Of a stretch of 24,000 bases of DNA, positions 1 through 13,397 are shown piece after piece; position 1 is the first letter of the stretch, and every line of letters begins with the position of its first letter. Source of the stretch: Candidatus Gastranaerophilales bacterium (lineage in GTDB: Bacteria > Cyanobacteriota > Vampirovibrionia > Gastranaerophilales > Gastranaerophilaceae). The translations under genes were made by a program, and so were the position numbers. The notes below the pieces were generated by a model, which saw only the letters and a program-made list of their open reading frames with translations, ran no database searches and was not told the DNA's origin. The DNA lies in the NCBI GenBank assembly GCA_910586855.1, contig CAJUJH010000001.1, forward strand, positions 807,393-831,392. Reading direction: 5' to 3'.

Positions 1-558
1 GAGAATTAAGCGCAGAAATACTCAATGGTGAATACTCACTTGCACCCTCAAGTCTTATTTGAAGAAAAGTATTGTTTGTTGCTTTTTTGTATTCTTCAAG
101 TGCTTTTTGCCTTTCTATTTCAAATGAGGTTATTGTTTTTTCGGGTGTAGATTCTTCGGCAGCACTTTCGTTATTTGCAGAATCACTTCCTGCAGGAGGT
201 GATGTTTTTATTTCAATATCTTTACCATCCTTATTTGTTACCATATTGATAAGATTTTTTGCCAGGGCAGCCAGTTGGTTTTCCTTGCCGGCAATTCCAA
301 CATTTTCACAAAATGCGACTATTTCTTCATCAGTGATATCTCCGTCTTTATTCACATCTAGTTCGCTTAAAATAACATTTATCTCTCTTGCATCCAGACC
401 ATCATTAAAGTTAAGATTCCAAGCGTCATTTTGATAATGTCCTTCAAGGGCGCTTATTGTTTTGTTTTCAAGTCCTTCTGTATTATATACGGAACTTTTT
501 TTATTATTTGATTATCCTGTAGATTAACAAATCCTGAAAGATTAATACCATTGTTCAT
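1..558 (-). CDS. EF-hand (Ca2+-binding loop) protein, 5' part. It runs off the left window edge and its reading frame is interrupted at an A7 tract.
   Basis: Not in the ORF track. On the minus strand, GGAG (rc of 568-571) lies 9 nt before the ATG at 558-556. That frame stops after 34 codons (TAA, rc of 454-456). The -1 frame is open from 511 to position 1 (>165 codons: ..SSVYNTEGLENKTISALEGHYQNDAWNLNFNDGLDAREINVILSELDVNKDGDITDEEIVAFCENVGIAGKENQ..). It contains a canonical 12-residue EF-hand loop, DVNKDGDITDEE (323-358). The two frames meet at T7/A7 (496-502). The plus-strand ORF 72-434 is its antisense shadow. Confidence 0.55.
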
Positions 559-594
559 TAATTACCACTCCTTTTAACTTATATTTATATTATC

Positions 595-609
595 GGGGGG
601 GGGGGGGGG
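595..609. repeat. Homopolymeric G15 (C15 on the minus strand), 36 nt upstream of the EF-hand gene ATG
   Basis: Direct count: 6 G at 595-600 plus 9 G at 601-609. On the minus strand it lies between TTGTGA-N17-TAAAGT (rc of 635-640 / 612-617) and GATAAT (rc of 589-594). Confidence 0.95.
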
Positions 610-715
610 TAACTTTAGGATAATTTTTAAAAATTCACAAAAATTTACAAAATATTTAAATATGATTTATCCATACACTTATTAGTTTGTTTTTATTTAA
701 AATCATAAAATAAAC

Positions 716-755
716 AATAAAAATCAGAGTCTGATTTAATTTTCAGACTCTGATT
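716..755 (-). terminator. Rho-independent terminator of the 837-aa gene
   Basis: Perfect 13-bp inverted repeat, aatcagagtctga (722-734) / tcagactctgatt (743-755), with an 8-nt loop. On the minus strand it is followed by TTTTTATTGTTTATTTT. Confidence 0.8.
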
Positions 756-769
756 AATATATTATTTAA

Positions 770-3283
770 CTATTTTTGGTCACCGTAGGTTTCGTATCCT
801 TTTTTCTTCATTTCATCAATTACGGTGTCGTTGATGGCTTCATCAAGACCTTCGCCTTTATCGTTGAACCATCCACTGTACTCGCCTTCGTTGTTATAGT
901 TATCTTCATCTGGCGTGTCTACACCTTCCAGTGAGCCTTCACCAAATGTTGCACCACCAACCGCTTTTGCTAAATCTGCAGCATCATTAAGTTCTTGTTT
1001 AATGCGGTCATTAAATGCTTTTTCTTCATCTTTGTCAATCAATATGTCACCATTTCCGCCGTTTTTCTCTTTGAGCTCGGTTGCTTGTGTGTGAATTTTT
1101 TCGGCTAAATCATATACTGATTGCATTTTGTCATTTAATGGGTCATTGTATGCTTTTTCAACATCGGCTTCAGATAATTGAGAGAACATATTTGTACCCA
1201 TAACCGCATCGTTTTCAAGAGTTGCTGCTATGTAATCATCATCTTCCATTGCTTGTTCTGCAGTGAAGTTATTGCCGTTCATTGTTACATTAAACGTTGT
1301 TTGAACCTGAGTATTATTAATGTTGTATGAATCTTCATTATTTGTTGGTGTCAGGTCAATCTTTGTAATTCCTGCATCCCAGGCACTTATGAAGCTTTGT
1401 TGAACACTTACGGTTCCATCGCCGTTATCAATTTCTTTAAGCTGCATCATCATAATTCCGCTTAAAGCTTCTTCGCCTTCGATAACGTTTTGACCTTCAG
1501 GAATGCCGTATTTTGTGCGGAATCCTGCCATACCTTCATCGTTATCTGAACCTAGAAGGTCTGTAATGCCGTCATATGTGCCATTACCATCATCTGCCAT
1601 AAAGTATAATCTGCTATCACCGTTTTTAATAGATATCGGGTCTGATCTGCCTGTGTCATTAACATCATTTTGAGTGGTTTTTGTTGATTGGATAACCTGA
1701 GAATCCTCCCATTGACCACCTTTTCCTGTGAAGCTCTTGATTTTTTCTGCAAGAGGAGTGTAGCTTGGGTCTGAATTAAATCTTACGCCGCCTTGACCTT
1801 GTTCAAAATCTTTTTGTTCACCCAATGAATAACCTATATCAAGACCGGGGAAGAATTGGTCGAGAGTATACATTGCTTCTTTGAATGAGAATCCGCCTGC
1901 TGCAAGTTCATCAACAAGTTTCATTGCATTTGCCATATCTTTTTCATTGGCAGGAGCAGTGCTTACCTCAGGCATTCCTGCTGTATTGTTTGCAATAGAC
2001 ATCACTGCTGTAAATATTTCCGGACCTCTGCCTGTAATTGTTCTGCCGGCAGCAGTTCGTTCATCCGGTGTACCATGACCGTATGGTACGGTATAGTTTC
2101 CGTTACCATTATCTTTAATGCCTATTCCGCCAAATGCATCAGCCAATATAGACATTATTTCACTGTTTGTTGCGCCGTTTTCCGCTAATTGCCATACAAG
2201 GCTGCCTTCCTGAATGGTTGTAGCATCTTTTTTGTCTCCAAATAATGCAGTTTCTAATGCCTGCATCATAGTATTATCTTTGCCGTAAGCATATTGGTCG
2301 CCTGAACCATGGGTTGTATTACCTGCTAAATCTTTGATTTGTTGTGTTATATTTCCTATGTTGCCGTCATTTCTTGTAGCGGCTTTGCCATCATTTGTAA
2401 CTTGGTTGTTATCGTTTCTGTCATTTAAATCAATACCATATTTATCAGCAAGCTCAGCAATTTTTGTTTCTTTTTCATATGTGAAAACAGGAACCTTTGA
2501 ATCATTATTTGCGTTAGAATAATAATTGTTATTTTGAGCAGTCATATTGCCCTTTTGCTGATTTAATACATTAATAATGGCTGAGGCATTCTTTAAGCCT
2601 TTCATTGCATTATCGCTATCTGAAATACATCTGTCGATATCTACCATATATTTATTCAAAGTACTGTTTTCGTTACCCATATCTTGATATAATTTTGCAA
2701 TATCAGCAAGACTTGAGTCTCCACTCATAAGACTGTCCAGGCTCGCATTAAATGTTTCTTTAAATGTTGTATTAACGCCAGCTTGTCTGTTTCTTTTTGT
2801 TTTATCGACAGCATCCGTAATGGCTTGACTGATTGCACTTTGTAATTGCTTTTCATATTTATTTTGTCTGCCGATGATATCCATACTGATATCACCAATC
2901 TTATCGCCGGTTTCACCAATTTCTTTATTTATTTTTGCAAGCTCTGTTTCATATTCTTTAAGCTTTGCTTCCCATTTTTCAATTTCATCATTAATATTTT
3001 TAATTTGTTTATCGATATCATCTATTGCTTTTTGACCGCCATTATTGTAGGTTTCTGTTCCCCAAAGAGTAAAATCGCCTTTGCTGATATCAGCTAAACC
3101 TGAAGCTAAACCATCTTTTTCTTTCATCCAATCTTGTACTTGTTTTAGCATGTCTGCTTGTACGTTTTGTGTTTTTGAAATGTCAGTTGCCATCTTCTTT
3201 AAATCCTTTCGCACTTTATTAAATACTTTATTGTCTTTAATTTTGCTGTATATATCAAATATATACATAGTGTTTTTCGGCAT
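770..3283 (-). CDS. Large orphan acidic, Asn/Asp-rich protein with an N-terminal coiled-coil region; no recognisable signal peptide
   Basis: 837-codon ORF. The N-terminal ~180 aa show heptad-like charge patterns (DKQIKNINDEIEKWEAKLKEYETELAKINKEIGETGDKIG). The centre and C-terminus are rich in D/N/G, with Ca-loop-like stretches (MADDGNGTYDGITDLLGSDNDEG). The start is uncertain. The ATG at 3283 lies 6 nt after a hairpin. M31 (ATG, rc of 3191-3193) has GAAAGGA upstream. Confidence 0.8.
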   Translation of the reverse strand: MPKNTMYIFDIYSKIKDNKVFNKVRKDLKKMATDISKTQNVQADMLKQVQDWMKEKDGLASGLADISKGDFTLWGTETYNNGGQKAIDDIDKQIKNINDEIEKWEAKLKEYETELAKINKEIGETGDKIGDISMDIIGRQNKYEKQLQSAISQAITDAVDKTKRNRQAGVNTTFKETFNASLDSLMSGDSSLADIAKLYQDMGNENSTLNKYMVDIDRCISDSDNAMKGLKNASAIINVLNQQKGNMTAQNNNYYSNANNDSKVPVFTYEKETKIAELADKYGIDLNDRNDNNQVTNDGKAATRNDGNIGNITQQIKDLAGNTTHGSGDQYAYGKDNTMMQALETALFGDKKDATTIQEGSLVWQLAENGATNSEIMSILADAFGGIGIKDNGNGNYTVPYGHGTPDERTAAGRTITGRGPEIFTAVMSIANNTAGMPEVSTAPANEKDMANAMKLVDELAAGGFSFKEAMYTLDQFFPGLDIGYSLGEQKDFEQGQGGVRFNSDPSYTPLAEKIKSFTGKGGQWEDSQVIQSTKTTQNDVNDTGRSDPISIKNGDSRLYFMADDGNGTYDGITDLLGSDNDEGMAGFRTKYGIPEGQNVIEGEEALSGIMMMQLKEIDNGDGTVSVQQSFISAWDAGITKIDLTPTNNEDSYNINNTQVQTTFNVTMNGNNFTAEQAMEDDDYIAATLENDAVMGTNMFSQLSEADVEKAYNDPLNDKMQSVYDLAEKIHTQATELKEKNGGNGDILIDKDEEKAFNDRIKQELNDAADLAKAVGGATFGEGSLEGVDTPDEDNYNNEGEYSGWFNDKGEGLDEAINDTVIDEMKKKGYETYGDQK

Positions 3284-5469: not shown

Positions 5470-5523
5470 AAGGCAATTATAAGATTAAATATTAAGGTAA
5501 TCAAGAACTATGCTATCGGGTAG

Positions 5524-7736: not shown

Positions 7737-7997
7737 TTACCCTGTCAGTGTGAAACCTTCTGGCAATTCTTCTTCTATCATTTTTACAAAATCAGATGCT
7801 TGCACTCCAAGTGCCTCTGAAAGCTTAAATACAGTTGTTAATTGCGGGTCCTTAAGACCGCGCTCAAGGCTATTTAAAAGTGATGTTGAAATTTCATATT
7901 CCATAGATAAAATATATAAGCTTTTATTGCCTCTGAGCTTTTTTAGGATTTTTCCTGCAGCAGTGCGTATTAGTTTTTTCTTATCTTCTTGTTGCAT
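7737..7997 (-). CDS. XRE/Cro-C1 family helix-turn-helix transcriptional regulator
   Basis: 86 aa. The HTH_3-like core is LRGNKSLYILSMEYEISTSLLNSLERGLKDPQLTTVFKLSEALGV. There is no SD. TATTAT (rc of 8005-8010) lies 7 nt before the ATG. Confidence 0.85.
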   Translation of the reverse strand: MQQEDKKKLIRTAAGKILKKLRGNKSLYILSMEYEISTSLLNSLERGLKDPQLTTVFKLSEALGVQASDFVKMIEEELPEGFTLTG

Positions 7998-8026: not shown

Positions 8027-8044
8027 TCACGTTCACGAACGTGA
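8027..8044. promoter_or_regulatory. Perfect palindrome TCACGTTC-ac-GAACGTGA (candidate operator 1)
   Basis: 8-bp arms with a 2-nt centre, in the 116-nt divergent region between the XRE gene and the glycine-rich gene. Confidence 0.6.
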
Positions 8045-8051
8045 ATGAAAT

Positions 8052-8072
8052 AATTCACAAAGTTTGTGAATT
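8052..8072. promoter_or_regulatory. Perfect palindrome AATTCACAAA-g-TTTGTGAATT (candidate operator 2), overlapping the putative promoter of the glycine-rich gene
   Basis: 10-bp arms with a 1-nt centre. It overlaps TTCACA (8054-8059)-N16-TATAGA (8076-8081). It shares the GTGAAT half-site with operator 1. Confidence 0.6.
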
Positions 8073-8113: not shown

Positions 8114-11100
8114 ATGAAAATTGTTTATCTAAAGCCTTTTAAAAGGTTACGTTCTTTTGCTGTACAAAAATTACAGTTTATATCTAAGGTGAAAAATCAA
8201 GGTCGCAGAGTGCAATTTATTGTATCGACATTGAAATTAGGATTAAGAAAATCCTTTGCCTTCTCCCTTGTTGAAATGCTTATGGCATTATTGGTAGCAT
8301 CGCTGCTTTTAGCAGCGCTTGCCCCTGTAATGACAAAGAGGATGACAGATAATGAAGTAAAAATAATATCAGAAGCAGCTAATTATGATAAAGATAGCGT
8401 AATAACTATTTTTACAGATGCATCTGAACAAAAAGAATTTAATATACCAACAGATGCAAGCAGAATAACATTAACAGCAGTAGGTGCAGGCGGTGCAGGC
8501 GGTAATGCATTATACGGTAATAAAGAATTTACAACAAGCGGAACATTTACCATACCAAACGATGTTAACAAGATAAGAGTATTTATGGTAGGTGCGGGAG
8601 GAGGCGGAGCTTCCGGAGGTATGGGAAATGGTATGGCATACGCTAATGTCCCTGCAATAGGAGCTGTTGAAACAACACTTACAAATGCCGGTACATATAC
8701 ACTTTCAGATGTTGTTACCATTCCAAATACATATACAGCACCTGTTCTAAATTCTTATTGTGATAAATTCAGTGCATTAAAAAAATGGGTAATGAAATCA
8801 AATACCTCAACACAAATAAATCCTGGAGCCAAAATTTCAAAAATTGATGGCAGTGCAATTGTCACATTTAATAAATTTACTGCATGCGGCGGAGGCGGAG
8901 GCGGGGGATATACTTCAGGCGGTATTGGTGCAAGCGGAGGAGGTTCTGGCGGATATGTAACAAATCAAACATTAGCCGCATCTGCTGCTGCCTCTGGTAT
9001 TAAATTTATAGTAGGTGCTGGTGGTAGTGGTGCGTTGCAAGCAAGCTATGGTCAGGGAGGTCCCGGCGGTGGCACGGGAGGTGCAGAAGGCGGAGGCAGG
9101 GGTGTACCTCAAGGTGGTCAGAATGGGACTAACGGTTCTGGCGGTCGCGGAGGTTATAGAACATACTCTGATATGTCAGGGGCACATGGGTTTTCGGGTT
9201 TTGGCGGCGGAGGTGGTGGCGGAACTGCAATATTATCTGACACAAGTGCAATTGCAGAAATTGGCGGCGGAGGTGGCGGTGCTGGTGGAACATGGGGTAG
9301 AAGTGATGGAACCATTTCTTCCAGCTTTATTTCTGGTGCTGGCGGCGGAGGCGGTGGACGTGGTGCTGGCGGCGGAGGCGGTTCATTAAGACTGCAAATG
9401 GTGAACGTTGGGTGTCAGGGACGTTCCGGTACAACAGGCGGTAATAATGGTAGTAGGGGTCTATGTGGTTTTGCACCCGATGATGGTGGTAGATATCCTG
9501 AACAGCAAGGCGGTGCAGGGTATGATGGTGGTGGCGGAGGCGGTGGAGGGGCATATTTAGATACCCCCTCTACAGAAGGGAGAACATGTACTGTGGCTAA
9601 TGGGTCTACGACATCAAGCGGTGCTGGTGGAGGTGGCGGTGGATTTACCTCACGAACCTATCCTGATGTTAGCCACGCATTTGGCGGTGGAGGGGGCGGG
9701 GGAAAAGGCGGACGCGGGGGAACCGGCGGTCCAGGCGGAGGTATTGGTGGCTCAATATCTACCATCTTTGGAAGCAGTAACTGCAATGGAGGCGATTCTG
9801 GAGTTGACGGTAAACCCGGTGCTATGCGTGTATGGTATTCTATTGCAGGTGTTACCAACGGTCTTCAGTGTGCATATTCTACCCAATCAAATGGCGGAGG
9901 CGGAGGTGGTGCAGGTCAAGTATGGATGGGTGAAATTAATGTAACGCCGGGGCAGACTATTACATTAAACATAGGACAAGGCGGTGCTGCTCAAAATATC
10001 GGCGGAGAAAACGGAAACGACGGTACACCAACAAGTATTGTTGTTAATGGTAATACATATTCTGTATCAGGCGGAAAAGGCGGAAAGTTTGAAAACGATA
10101 ATACATATATAGCTAATTCAGGAGGTCTTGGCGGCGGAATAAAAACCACTAATTATAGTTCTTCTGCTATATATAAAGATTGGCTTAAATTAAATGAAAA
10201 AGGAATAACTCTAACAGGAGGAAATAACGGCGGACAAGGATATCTAAAAACAGACAGTGAAAGCAGTGCAGGCGGAAATGGCGGAAGTGCATTAAAAATG
10301 GATGGTACTTATGCTGCAGGCGGTGTTGGCGGAGCTGCAGTTACCGGTGGTGCTAATTCAACAAATTATGGTACAGGCGGAGGCGGAGGAGGAGCAGGTA
10401 CTGATGGAACATTTGGAAACGGAGGCAGAGGTGCTAACGGATATATATACATTGAATGGGGTGGAACAAACGGAGGCGGAGGAACAAATGGTGAAATTGT
10501 TCAAAGAATACTTACCAACTTTGATATGAATGATAGAAAGATGTTAATAAATATTGGAAAAGGCGGAAGTAATTCATCAGGTGATGGTAATGGAGGCAAT
10601 ACAACAATTTCTGTTAAATCCGGAGGAAAAAACGTTGTTGTTACAGCAAGAGGAGGTATTAAAGGAAACATTGGCACATCTGACGCCAATACCCATGGAG
10701 CAGAAATGATATTTCCATCTGACTACAATAACCTATACAAGGACTTTGTTCAAAACAATCTGAATATTATTAACGGACAAAAAGGAATAAATGATTATGG
10801 CGGTATGGGCGGATATCTGGCTTGTATATATTATTCAAAGGACAAAGACGGTAACAGAGTATGCAATACATCTGTTGATTCCAATGATGGAGTTGAAGAA
10901 ACAGCAGGACCAACAAGACCCGGATGCGGAGGAAGCGCTATACCATCTCCGCTATATGAAGCCATCTGTAATGCTAAATCAACATCGGTATCTGCTGATG
11001 GAGGTAATGGAACCTTTGGCGGCGGAGGCGGCGGCGGAGCAGTATTAAACAGAATGGGAGGCAAAGGAGGCAATGGCGGCAATGGCTTTGTAATTCTTGA

Positions 11101-11119
11101 ATACAAGAGTGTACAATAG
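8114..11119 (+). CDS. Giant glycine-rich protein with a prepilin-type (class III) N-terminal signal and multiple glycine-rich, tail-fibre-like modules
   Basis: 1001 aa, with GGAG 9 nt upstream. The motif RKSFA|FSLVEMLMALLVASLLLAALAPV (8258-8329) fits [GAS]|[FM]xxxE with Glu at +5, followed by a hydrophobic helix. The rest repeats a beta-strand followed by a Gly run (ITLTAVGAGGAGG, IRVFMVGAGGGGASGG, KFTACGGGGGGG, IKFIVGAGGSGA, VTPGQTITLNIGQGGAA, GYIYIEWGG, GFVILEYK). Gly runs reach 7-8 residues. The leader is long (49 aa). Alternative starts at GTG (V33) or TTG (L40) are possible. Confidence 0.85.
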   Translation: MKIVYLKPFKRLRSFAVQKLQFISKVKNQGRRVQFIVSTLKLGLRKSFAFSLVEMLMALLVASLLLAALAPVMTKRMTDNEVKIISEAANYDKDSVITIFTDASEQKEFNIPTDASRITLTAVGAGGAGGNALYGNKEFTTSGTFTIPNDVNKIRVFMVGAGGGGASGGMGNGMAYANVPAIGAVETTLTNAGTYTLSDVVTIPNTYTAPVLNSYCDKFSALKKWVMKSNTSTQINPGAKISKIDGSAIVTFNKFTACGGGGGGGYTSGGIGASGGGSGGYVTNQTLAASAAASGIKFIVGAGGSGALQASYGQGGPGGGTGGAEGGGRGVPQGGQNGTNGSGGRGGYRTYSDMSGAHGFSGFGGGGGGGTAILSDTSAIAEIGGGGGGAGGTWGRSDGTISSSFISGAGGGGGGRGAGGGGGSLRLQMVNVGCQGRSGTTGGNNGSRGLCGFAPDDGGRYPEQQGGAGYDGGGGGGGGAYLDTPSTEGRTCTVANGSTTSSGAGGGGGGFTSRTYPDVSHAFGGGGGGGKGGRGGTGGPGGGIGGSISTIFGSSNCNGGDSGVDGKPGAMRVWYSIAGVTNGLQCAYSTQSNGGGGGGAGQVWMGEINVTPGQTITLNIGQGGAAQNIGGENGNDGTPTSIVVNGNTYSVSGGKGGKFENDNTYIANSGGLGGGIKTTNYSSSAIYKDWLKLNEKGITLTGGNNGGQGYLKTDSESSAGGNGGSALKMDGTYAAGGVGGAAVTGGANSTNYGTGGGGGGAGTDGTFGNGGRGANGYIYIEWGGTNGGGGTNGEIVQRILTNFDMNDRKMLINIGKGGSNSSGDGNGGNTTISVKSGGKNVVVTARGGIKGNIGTSDANTHGAEMIFPSDYNNLYKDFVQNNLNIINGQKGINDYGGMGGYLACIYYSKDKDGNRVCNTSVDSNDGVEETAGPTRPGCGGSAIPSPLYEAICNAKSTSVSADGGNGTFGGGGGGGAVLNRMGGKGGNGGNGFVILEYKSVQ

Positions 11120-13290: not shown

Positions 13291-13397
13291 AGGAAAATTA
13301 TATTATAAAAAAATAAAATTTAAAAAATGAAAAACGAACGGTTTTTCTATTTTTCTCATAAGAAGATTATATTATAAAAAAATATAAAAATAAAATT
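13273..13397. repeat. Imperfect tandem duplication (~48 and ~57 nt, period ~68 nt) of the lepA promoter plus its first 6 codons
   Basis: Copy A is 13273-13320 and copy B is 13341-13397. On the minus strand the copies read ..TTTTTTTATAATATAATTTTCCTATGAAAAAAATAGAAAAC and ..TTTTTTTATAATATAATCTTCTTATGAGAAAAATAGAAAAAC. Copy B opens an 18-codon mini-ORF (13303-13359, minus). Confidence 0.8.

What the first reader, a model, noticed from the sequence alone, without database searches (positions are those of the whole stretch)
595..609. G15 homopolymer in the promoter or leader of the EF-hand gene: candidate phase-variation switch
A run of 15 G (C15 on the coding strand) is extreme for such AT-rich DNA. 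It lies 36 nt upstream of the ATG at 558.

On the coding strand it is flanked by TTGTGA-N17-TAAAGT upstream and GATAAT immediately downstream. So it is either the first transcribed bases or the -35/-10 spacer of the promoter.

Homopolymeric G/C tracts in such positions are the established mechanism of slipped-strand phase variation of surface or contingency genes in Neisseria, Haemophilus, Campylobacter and Helicobacter.
Basis: partly seen in the sequence, partly recalled or inferred. Interest (0 to 1): 0.7.

Follow-up and report, generated by a model that had tools for sequence, protein, structure and literature searches.

The report
Length-variable poly-C tract in a promoter
A run of 15 G (C on the coding strand) just upstream of a small orphan gene in an uncultured mouse-gut Gastranaerophilales bacterium is real and is the only place where otherwise identical genomes differ (11 to 15 bases), so it looks like a classic slipped-strand expression switch, but in this genome the gene it would control is broken by a frameshift.

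Summary
G15 lies at 595-609 and is the only G or C run longer than 5 in 24 kb (about 5e-6 expected by chance). It is not an artefact: the same tract, with the same flanks, occurs in 13 independent metagenome assemblies of this Gastranaerophilales (Melainabacteria) species.

The assembled length varies: C11 x3, C12 x4, C13, C14 x2, C15, plus two interrupted versions. The window differs from two other assemblies by nothing but the tract over 9-10 kb. Six further assemblies break or carry an N gap at or within about 30 nt of the site.

The tract sits between a phased A/T repeat with TTGTGA-N17-TAAAGT upstream and a GATAAT hexamer directly downstream. It is 36 nt before an ATG with a strong ribosome-binding site. 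This geometry matches Neisseria opc and the Bordetella fim C-stretches. Whether length changes expression is inferred, not shown.

- The gene is frameshifted here, giving a 34-aa stop. This allele is the most commonly recorded one. Other lineages carry a TGA nonsense codon, and one lineage has an intact 486-aa gene with C14.
- The product is an orphan protein with one sub-threshold EF-hand loop and no signal peptide.

Verdict: a new member of a known kind, of moderate interest.

The parts
595..609 (-). Poly-C tract (C15 on the coding strand, G15 on the + strand). It is the hypermutable element.
   Evidence: the only G/C run longer than 5 in the window; the same site reads C11-C15 in other assemblies.
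589..594 (-). GATAAT, a -10-like hexamer (5/6 of TATAAT, with -11A and -7T present) that directly abuts the tract
   Evidence: Sequence reading. It is identical in all clean assemblies. Its function as a -10 is inferred.
612..640 (-). Alternative promoter TTGTGA (640..635) - N17 - TAAAGT (617..612). It would start transcription inside the C tract.
   Evidence: Sequence reading. It matches 8 of 12 consensus positions, below the scan tool's threshold of 9 of 12.
629..658 (-). Phased A/T-rich direct repeat (period 10, 2.9 copies; TTTTGTRAAT units on the minus strand). It is a candidate UP-like, curved-DNA or activator site whose phase relative to GATAAT is set by tract length.
   Evidence: Tandem Repeats Finder. 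The functional role is inferred.
568..575 (-). Shine-Dalgarno AAAAGGAG, 9 nt before the ATG
   Evidence: Sequence reading.
454..558 (-). Start codon (558..556) and the truncated 34-aa reading frame of the target gene
   Evidence: The exact 34-aa product is on 112 contigs.
496..502 (-). A7 run at the frameshift site. The window reads ATAATAAAAAAAGTTCC, which is 1 nt shorter than the in-frame alleles ATAATTAAAAAAAGTTCC and ATAATCAAGAAAGATTCC.
1..500 (-). Remainder of the target gene in the -1 frame. It includes the EF-hand-like loop DVNKDGDITDEE and runs off the window. The full corrected length is 309 aa (from L001).
   Evidence: Intact homologue P0039 (486 aa).
722..755 (-). Intrinsic terminator hairpin (13-bp stem followed by a T run) of the upstream 837-aa gene. 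It makes the target gene a separate transcription unit.

Best explanation
The tract is a genuine hypermutable poly(C)/poly(G) run in the promoter region of a monocistronic orphan gene. The host is a mouse-gut Gastranaerophilales (Melainabacteria) bacterium.

Shown:
- The tract exists in many independent assemblies.
- Its length is the only difference between otherwise identical genomes.
- It lies between an A/T-phased upstream region and a GATAAT hexamer, 36 nt before a start codon with a strong ribosome-binding site.

Inferred:
- Replication slippage adds or removes C:G pairs.
- Each step changes the distance by 1 bp, and the rotational phase by about 34 degrees, between the upstream elements (-35-like, UP-like or an activator site) and the -10 hexamer abutting the tract. 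Transcription of the downstream gene would therefore be tuned or switched, as in Neisseria opc and Bordetella fim2/fim3.

In the lineage sampled by this window the gene also carries a 1-nt deletion at codon 21-22. Here the switch drives a gene that yields only a 34-aa peptide unless the frame is rescued. A sister lineage keeps an intact 486-aa gene behind a C14 tract.
For: - Extreme outlier: the only G/C run longer than 5 in the window, about 5e-6 expected. Elsewhere G homopolymers are avoided. The Gly-rich gene has 258 Gly codons and 121 Gly-Gly pairs, yet its longest G run is 5.
- Same site and same flanks in 13 assemblies, with lengths 11, 11, 11, 12, 12, 12, 12, 13, 14, 14, 15, plus C6AC9 and CCCTC14.
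- Window vs L088: 10,558 bp with 0 mismatches and one 3-nt gap, which is the tract. Window vs L001: 9,280 bp with the same result.
- L002 vs L089 come from accessions of the same numeric series, with SPAdes-style contig names and coverage 17-19. Over 13.7 kb they are identical except at the tract.
- Six assemblies break or carry an N gap at or within about 30 nt of the tract: L084, L085, L086, L093, L094, L095.
- The tract is retained (C14) in the lineage with the intact 486-aa gene.
- Anatomy: terminator, phased A/T repeat, tract, GATAAT, SD, ATG.
- Known precedents have the same tract type and length range. The opc poly-C shifts between 11C, 12C and 14C (PMC6389960). Bordetella fim2 has C10-15 and fim3 has C13-18 promoter C-stretches that influence transcription (PMC1891110).
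Against: - There are no expression data or transcription-start data. No -35 hexamer with a usable spacing to GATAAT exists for C11-C15; TTATCC would need C9-C10.
- Assembled homopolymer lengths from short reads are error-prone. Low-coverage assemblies show error-like substitutions next to the tract (L087, L092, L100, L101).
- The target gene is frameshifted in the most commonly recorded allele and carries a nonsense codon in another lineage. In those lineages tract variation may be neutral.
- No second poly-G/C locus was seen in about 55 kb of this genome, and the paralogue P0058 has no tract. There is therefore no sign of a contingency-locus repertoire.
- The intergenic identity between lineages lies inside a larger 400-bp identical mosaic block, so it does not indicate selection on the promoter.
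Confidence: 0.5

Rival explanations
1. The tract is real and hypermutable but has no regulatory function in this lineage. It is a neutral mutational hot spot in front of a decaying gene, and its length drifts because nothing selects on it.
For: - The gene is frameshifted here, and that allele is on 112 or more contigs.
- Other lineages carry independent lesions: TGG->TGA at codon 47 in L100, L101 and L094, and a 5-nt insertion in L094/L095.
- The family is a tiny orphan family, with 12 representatives among 1.84 billion proteins.
Against: - A long G/C run is hard to create by chance in a genome that has no other run longer than 5, so its origin and retention need explaining.
- It is kept (C14) in the lineage whose gene is intact and which is also widely recorded (P0039 in 140 blocks).
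- About 290 codons downstream of the frameshift remain open, so the lesion is recent.
Confidence: 0.22
2. The tract is real but stable. The 11-15 spread comes from library PCR slippage, post-homopolymer miscalls on Illumina, and the assembler's choice of path.
For: - Error-like substitutions immediately beside the tract in assemblies at coverage 2-6.5.
- Contig breaks and an N10 gap at the site.
- Junk sequence after the tract in L003.
Against: - Four independent assemblies agree on C12 with clean flanks.
- C12 and a 15-nt-equivalent length come from accessions of the same numeric series at coverage 17-19, with 13.7 kb otherwise identical.
- A 3-4 nt spread is larger than the usual +/-1 consensus error.
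Confidence: 0.15
3. The tract is transcribed rather than being promoter spacer. With TTGTGA-N17-TAAAGT as the promoter, RNA polymerase starts inside the C run, and the tract acts through start-site choice or reiterative transcription, or as a poly-C 5' leader.
For: - TTGTGA-N17-TAAAGT has correct spacing and lies 2 nt upstream of the tract.
- The A/T repeat overlaps and precedes it in the way an UP element would.
Against: - It matches only 8 of 12 consensus positions and was not reported by the scan.
- The start would have to be a pyrimidine.
- Folding the leader with C0 to C18 gives the same structure and energy (-3.9 kcal/mol) with the poly-C unpaired, so there is no anti-SD pairing.
Confidence: 0.1
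4. The tract belongs to a + strand transcript, or acts as a DNA structure. TTACCA-N18-TATATT (562-591, + strand) would start transcription inside G15. Alternatively, G15 forms a G-quadruplex (and C15 an i-motif) that blocks transcription.
For: - The + strand promoter-like site scores 9 of 12.
- G15 is exactly long enough for a three-tetrad quadruplex with 1-nt loops (established G4 geometry; inference).
Against: - There is no + strand ORF and no Rfam family there.
- Promoter-like sites are common in this AT-rich DNA: 6 found against 3.1 expected.
- Most alleles are C11-C12, too short for three tetrads.
Confidence: 0.03

Closest known systems
Neisseria meningitidis opc promoter poly-cytidine tract (Sarkari et al. 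1994, cited in PMC6389960; Hubert et al. 2012, PMC3447861)
   Same: - A poly-C run of about 11-15 lies directly upstream of the -10 region of a single gene.
- Length shifts of 1-3 bases occur between clones (11C to 12C or 14C in PMC6389960).
- Transcription is tuned by promoter geometry, not by reading frame.
   Different: - Here the host is an uncultured Melainabacteria gut commensal.
- The product is not a known outer-membrane protein.
- No length-to-expression relation is known.
- The target gene is frameshifted in this genome.
Bordetella pertussis/bronchiseptica fim2, fim3 and fimX promoter 'C-stretch' (PMC1891110)
   Same: - Cytosine homopolymers lie in the promoter: fim2 C10-15, fim3 C13-18, and up to C19 in B. 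bronchiseptica fim3.
- The stretch sits between an upstream conserved element or activator site and the -10 (the position is from my own knowledge, not from PMC1891110).
- Length is polymorphic between strains and influences transcript level.
   Different: - No fim box and no BvgA-type activator are identified here.
- The upstream element is only a 10-bp-phased A/T repeat.
- This is a single locus rather than a gene family; the paralogue P0058 has no tract.
Intragenic poly-G/C contingency loci of Campylobacter jejuni and Helicobacter pylori
   Same: A long G/C homopolymer in an AT-rich genome that otherwise avoids such runs, with slipped-strand length changes.
   Different: - Those tracts are mostly inside coding regions and switch the reading frame. 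This one is 36 nt upstream of the start codon.
- Those genomes carry tens of such loci. Only one was seen in about 55 kb here.

Membership tests
SSR (homopolymer) phase-variable promoter, opc/fim type | Homopolymeric tract far longer than composition predicts | tested here: met
   G15 against a next-longest run of 5; about 5e-6 expected per window.
SSR (homopolymer) phase-variable promoter, opc/fim type | Tract located within the core promoter, or between promoter elements, of the regulated gene | tested here: inconclusive
   The tract abuts GATAAT and lies 36 nt before an SD-preceded ATG, downstream of the neighbouring gene's terminator. The transcription start is unknown and no convincing -35 is present.
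SSR (homopolymer) phase-variable promoter, opc/fim type | Tract length polymorphic among otherwise identical genomes | tested here: met
   C11-C15 in 13 assemblies. The tract is the sole difference over 9-14 kb. Caveat: these are assembled lengths, not read-level lengths.
SSR (homopolymer) phase-variable promoter, opc/fim type | High-frequency, reversible length switching within a clonal population | not testable with these tools
   This needs raw reads or cultured clones. Contig breaks at the tract in six assemblies are compatible with it but not specific.
SSR (homopolymer) phase-variable promoter, opc/fim type | Tract length changes expression of the gene | not testable with these tools
   No transcript or reporter data are available. 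RNA folding excludes a simple leader-structure effect.
SSR (homopolymer) phase-variable promoter, opc/fim type | Regulated gene is functional and encodes a surface or host-interaction determinant | tested here: not met
   In this window the gene is frameshifted, with a 34-aa stop. The intact homologue P0039 has no Pfam, NCBIfam or PDB relative apart from a weak EF-hand loop. The N-terminus MNNGINLSGFVNLQ has no hydrophobic core. The fold model has pLDDT 53 and gave no structural match.
EF-hand calcium-binding proteins | Canonical 12-residue loop (D-x-[DN]-x-[DN]-G-x-[ILV]-x-x-x-E) scoring above the family threshold, usually in pairs | tested here: inconclusive
   The loop DVNKDGDITDEE fits the pattern. 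Pfam EF-hand_1 gives E=9e-4 and 19.1 bits against a cut-off of 25.4. No second canonical loop is present. PDB hits to calcium-binding proteins have E=0.016-0.02.
Two-colour-chemistry poly-G sequencing artefact | Poly-G confined to read or contig ends and not reproducible across runs or assemblies | tested here: not met
   The tract is internal to long contigs (at least 0.8-1.0 Mb; L088, L089), has the same flanks in 13 assemblies from several accession series, and is read on both strands.
Programmed -1 ribosomal frameshift (dnaX / IS3-type A_AAA_AAG) | Slippery heptamer in frame, plus stimulatory elements, plus conservation of the two-frame arrangement in relatives | tested here: not met
   The heptamer A_AAA_AAA is in the right frame, and a -1 shift would restore the protein. 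However, no downstream structure is present (z=+0.9), and related alleles are simply in frame.

The most novel reading that the evidence does not exclude
This would be the first simple-sequence-repeat contingency locus in Melainabacteria/Vampirovibrionia, the uncultured non-photosynthetic sister group of Cyanobacteria. It would have been detected purely from differences between metagenome assemblies.

In this reading, a promoter poly-C rheostat controls an orphan calcium-loop protein. That protein is also being knocked out repeatedly in the wild by a frameshift, a nonsense codon and an insertion. This would imply strong fluctuating selection, for example from host immunity or phage, on this one protein in a gut commensal.
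Probability: 0.35. Interest if true: 0.55.

Novelty: new member of a known kind. Interest (0 to 1): 0.42.

Why it matters
Phase variation by homopolymer slippage is well described in a few cultured pathogens. I know of no description in uncultured gut commensals of the Melainabacteria; full-text searches for Gastranaerophilales with 'phase variation' and Melainabacteria with 'homopolymeric' found nothing relevant.

If the switch is functional, it marks this orphan protein as one whose expression is sometimes harmful to the bacterium in the mouse gut. It also shows that such loci can be found by comparing public assemblies.

There is a practical consequence too. The tract is a recurrent breakpoint and a source of local errors in assemblies of this species, and gene callers mis-annotate the downstream gene.

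Tried and rejected
- **Genome-contig scan with the 837-aa neighbour:** no relatives found. A RecR scan then identified the clade and gave 56 related loci, but none carries the homologous gene or tract.
- **JGI metagenome pattern scans spanning the tract:** two scans found nothing.
- **RNA anti-SD or leader structure involving poly-C:** rejected. The fold is the same for C0 to C18.
- **Rfam:** no family in the window.
- **A-run slippage as the cause of the frameshift:** rejected. The in-frame allele differs by a T next to the same A7 run.
- **Programmed -1 frameshifting:** the heptamer is present, but there is no stimulatory structure and no conservation.
- **Conservation of the intergenic region as evidence of selection:** rejected, because it lies within a larger 100% identical mosaic block.
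- **The 'intact' 309-aa alleles P0040/P0050:** they turned out to contain an in-frame TGA that the gene caller read as Trp.
- **Structure prediction and fold search for the product:** pLDDT 53 and no match at E<=0.001.
- **Poly-C upstream of the paralogue P0058:** absent.

Full report
**1. Observation**

The + strand of the window reads ...TATTATC-G15-TAACTTTAGG..., with the G run at 595-609. A run-length census shows G runs of 1-5 and then 15, and C runs of 1-5. The number of G15/C15 runs expected in 24 kb is 3e-7 under independent bases and 5e-6 under a first-order Markov model.

The genome avoids such runs even where the coding sequence invites them. The glycine-rich 1001-aa gene at 8114-11119 has 258 Gly codons and 121 adjacent Gly-Gly pairs, but only 13 GGG codons and no G run longer than 5. 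A further 20.7 kb of the same genome (L097) has no G/C run of 6 or more. About 900 kb of related loci have only four runs of 7 or more, two of them at a contig end or N gap.

**2. Organism and layout**

RecR, YbaB, LepA, the ribosomal-protein/RpoA cluster and other genes show that this is a bacterial chromosome with about 33-35% G+C. The closest genomes are mouse-gut MAGs labelled Gastranaerophilales / Vampirovibrio / Melainabacteria, with RecR up to 98% identical.

On the minus strand the order is:
- an 837-aa orphan gene (3283..770)
- its terminator hairpin (755..722)
- an A/T-rich stretch with a 10-bp-period repeat (658..629)
- TTGTGA (640..635), N17, TAAAGT (617..612), TA
- C15 (609..595)
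- GATAAT (594..589)
- AAAAGGAG (575..568)
- ATG (558..556)

The downstream neighbour converges (L001 gene table), so the gene behind the tract is monocistronic.

**3. The tract in other assemblies**

The 837-aa protein and the 34-aa product of the ORF starting at 558 occur, as exact sequences, in 206 and 288 blocks of the public collection. In the loci that could be fetched, the same site with the same flanks reads as follows:

| Tract | Assemblies |
|---|---|
| C11 | L087, L091, L101 |
| C12 | L001, L002, L088, L090 |
| C13 | L092 |
| C14 | L096; also L089, which reads A+C14 and so has the same total spacing as C15 |
| C15 | the window |
| C6AC9 | L100 |
| CCCTC14, then junk to the contig end | L003 |

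Six assemblies are interrupted at or near the site:
- an N10 gap replaces the tract in L084
- the L086 contig starts with the last four C of the tract
- contigs L085, L093, L094 and L095 start 12-30 nt downstream of it

The tract is also the only difference between otherwise identical sequences:
- Window vs L088: 10,558 bp, 0 mismatches, one 3-nt gap. Window vs L001: 9,280 bp, same result.
- L002 vs L089 come from accessions of the same numeric series, with SPAdes-style contig names and coverage 16.7 and 18.9. Over 13.7 kb they are identical apart from the tract and one adjacent base.

The tract is therefore real and reproducible, and it is where the variation concentrates. There is a caveat. 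Low-coverage assemblies (2-6.5x) carry error-like substitutions next to the tract. Some of the spread may therefore be technical. Read-level data are needed to prove within-population switching.

**4. The gene behind the tract**

From ATG 558 the frame closes after 34 codons. The rest of the gene, including the loop DVNKDGDITDEE, is in the -1 frame. Adding one base at ATAATAAAAAAAGTTCC gives a 309-aa protein.

The broken allele is the one most often recorded: the 34-aa ORF is on 112 contigs and the 241-aa internal-start call on 195.

Other alleles:
- P0039, 486 aa with an internal duplication, is listed in 140 blocks. It reads ATAATCAAGAAAGATTCC and is truly intact behind a C14 tract.
- The '309-aa' alleles P0040/P0050 read ATAATTAAAAAAAGTTCC or the P0039-type sequence. 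They carry TGG->TGA at codon 47, which the gene caller read as Trp. L094/L095 also have a 5-nt insertion.

The gene has therefore been hit independently at least three times.

The frameshift is a lost T beside an unchanged A7 run, so it is not A-run slippage. The heptamer A_AAA_AAA is in the right frame for a -1 shift to restore the protein. However, no stimulatory structure follows it (z=+0.9), and relatives are simply in frame. Programmed frameshifting is therefore not supported.

The product is an orphan:
- EF-hand models score below threshold (19.1 vs 25.4 bits).
- PDB hits are weak (E about 0.02).
- There is no NCBIfam hit.
- Only 12 representatives exist among 1.84 billion proteins.
- The AlphaFold model has low confidence (pLDDT 53) and gave no fold match.
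- The N-terminus has no signal-peptide character (direct reading of the sequence).

**5. Mechanism**

Two geometries fit the sequence.

(a) GATAAT, abutting the tract, is the -10.
- The transcript would start about 7 nt further on, in a purine-rich stretch, giving a leader of about 25 nt.
- The tract would occupy the spacer and -35 zone. Its length would set the distance and helical phase between the -10 and the upstream A/T repeat with its -35-like hexamers.
- For C11-C15 no good -35 lies at 16-18 bp; TTATCC would need C9-C10. Such a promoter would depend on UP-like or activator contacts.

(b) TTGTGA-N17-TAAAGT is the promoter and transcription starts inside the C run.
- It matches only 8 of 12 consensus positions, and the scan did not report it.
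- It would need a pyrimidine start.
- The poly-C would not pair with anything in the leader; folds are identical for C0 to C18.

I favour (a), by analogy with two known systems. In opc, clones shift between 11C, 12C and 14C (PMC6389960). In Bordetella, fim2 has C10-15 and fim3 has C13-18 promoter C-stretches whose length influences transcription (PMC1891110).

The steps from length change to expression change are inferred. What is shown is the tract's existence, its position and its length polymorphism.

**6. Limits on the functional claim**

- The intergenic region is 100% identical between the two main lineages. It lies inside a 400-bp identical block of a mosaic pattern in which 100% blocks alternate with 77-89% blocks. 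This does not demonstrate selection on the promoter.
- The paralogue P0058 has no tract.
- No other poly-G/C locus was seen in the roughly 55 kb of this genome available.
- In the window's lineage the gene is broken, so tract variation may currently be neutral.

**7. Comparison and novelty**

In mechanism this is the known kind called 'SSR-mediated promoter phase variation'.
- Membership features met: tract length, and polymorphism among identical genomes.
- Inconclusive: position within the core promoter.
- Untestable here: switching rate and effect on expression.
- Not met in this window: a functional surface-protein target.

I found no paper linking Gastranaerophilales or Melainabacteria with phase variation or homopolymeric tracts. 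It is therefore a new member of a known kind, in an unstudied phylum.

**8. Verdict**

- Observation: confirmed.
- Interpretation: partly supported.
- Confidence that the tract is real and length-polymorphic between genomes: about 0.85.
- Confidence that it acts as a transcriptional switch or rheostat where the gene is intact: about 0.5.
- Interest: moderate, 0.42.

Noticed in passing
window 454-558 and 1-500 (minus strand); L094, L095, L100, L101: The gene behind the tract is inactivated in different ways in different lineages. Here it has a 1-nt deletion. L100, L101 and L094 have TGG->TGA at codon 47, which gene callers read as Trp, so the database proteins P0040/P0050 look intact. L094/L095 also have a 5-nt insertion. 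The 486-aa allele P0039 is intact.
   Followed up: yes
window 496-505 (minus strand): The frameshift site reads ATA AAA AAA G in the zero frame. This is an A_AAA_AAA slippery heptamer, and a -1 shift there would restore the full protein. An AGGA lies 12 nt upstream. No downstream stimulatory structure was found.
   Followed up: partly
window 8114-11119 (+): A 1001-aa glycine-rich protein with a pseudopilin-type N-terminal methylation motif (Gly_rich_2, weak N_methyl). Local G+C is 54% in a genome of about 33%. It has many Gly6-8 runs encoded without any G run longer than 5.
   Followed up: partly
window 8028-8043 and 8052-8072: Two operator-like palindromes, CACGTTCACGAACGTG and AATTCACAAAGTTTGTGAATT. 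They lie between the glycine-rich gene and a divergent 86-aa HTH_3 (XRE-type) gene at 7997..7737. The half-site TTGTGAAT also occurs upstream of the poly-C tract (640..633).
   Followed up: no
window 5476-5504 (minus); 13297-13313 and 13366-13382 (minus): Near-consensus promoters placed so close to the start codon that the mRNAs would be leaderless. The 710-aa membrane protein has TTGATT-N17-TATAAT-N6-ATG. TTTTTTTATAATATAAT occurs twice upstream of lepA.
   Followed up: no
window 770-3283 (minus) vs L096/L084: Between lineages the 837-aa orphan gene is a mosaic. Blocks of 100% identity alternate with blocks of 77-89% identity, which suggests recombination.
   Followed up: partly
P0003, P0058, P0071, P0075-P0077 (alignment A1); L097 10001-10714: The tract-linked protein belongs to a tiny orphan family, with 12 representatives among 1.84 billion proteins. 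Other members share an N-terminus MGL[AS]ASQGRLLLLT... and a C-terminal coiled coil around a variable middle domain. This is a conserved-ends, variable-middle layout. No known family matches.
   Followed up: partly
window 562-591 (+): A + strand promoter-like site, TTACCA-N18-TATATT, would place a transcription start inside the G15 run, reading towards the hairpin at 722-755. No ORF or Rfam family lies there.
   Followed up: no
L005 9691-9710: In a related MAG a C10 run sits directly after an N10 scaffold gap. This is either another assembly break at a homopolymer or an end artefact.
   Followed up: no
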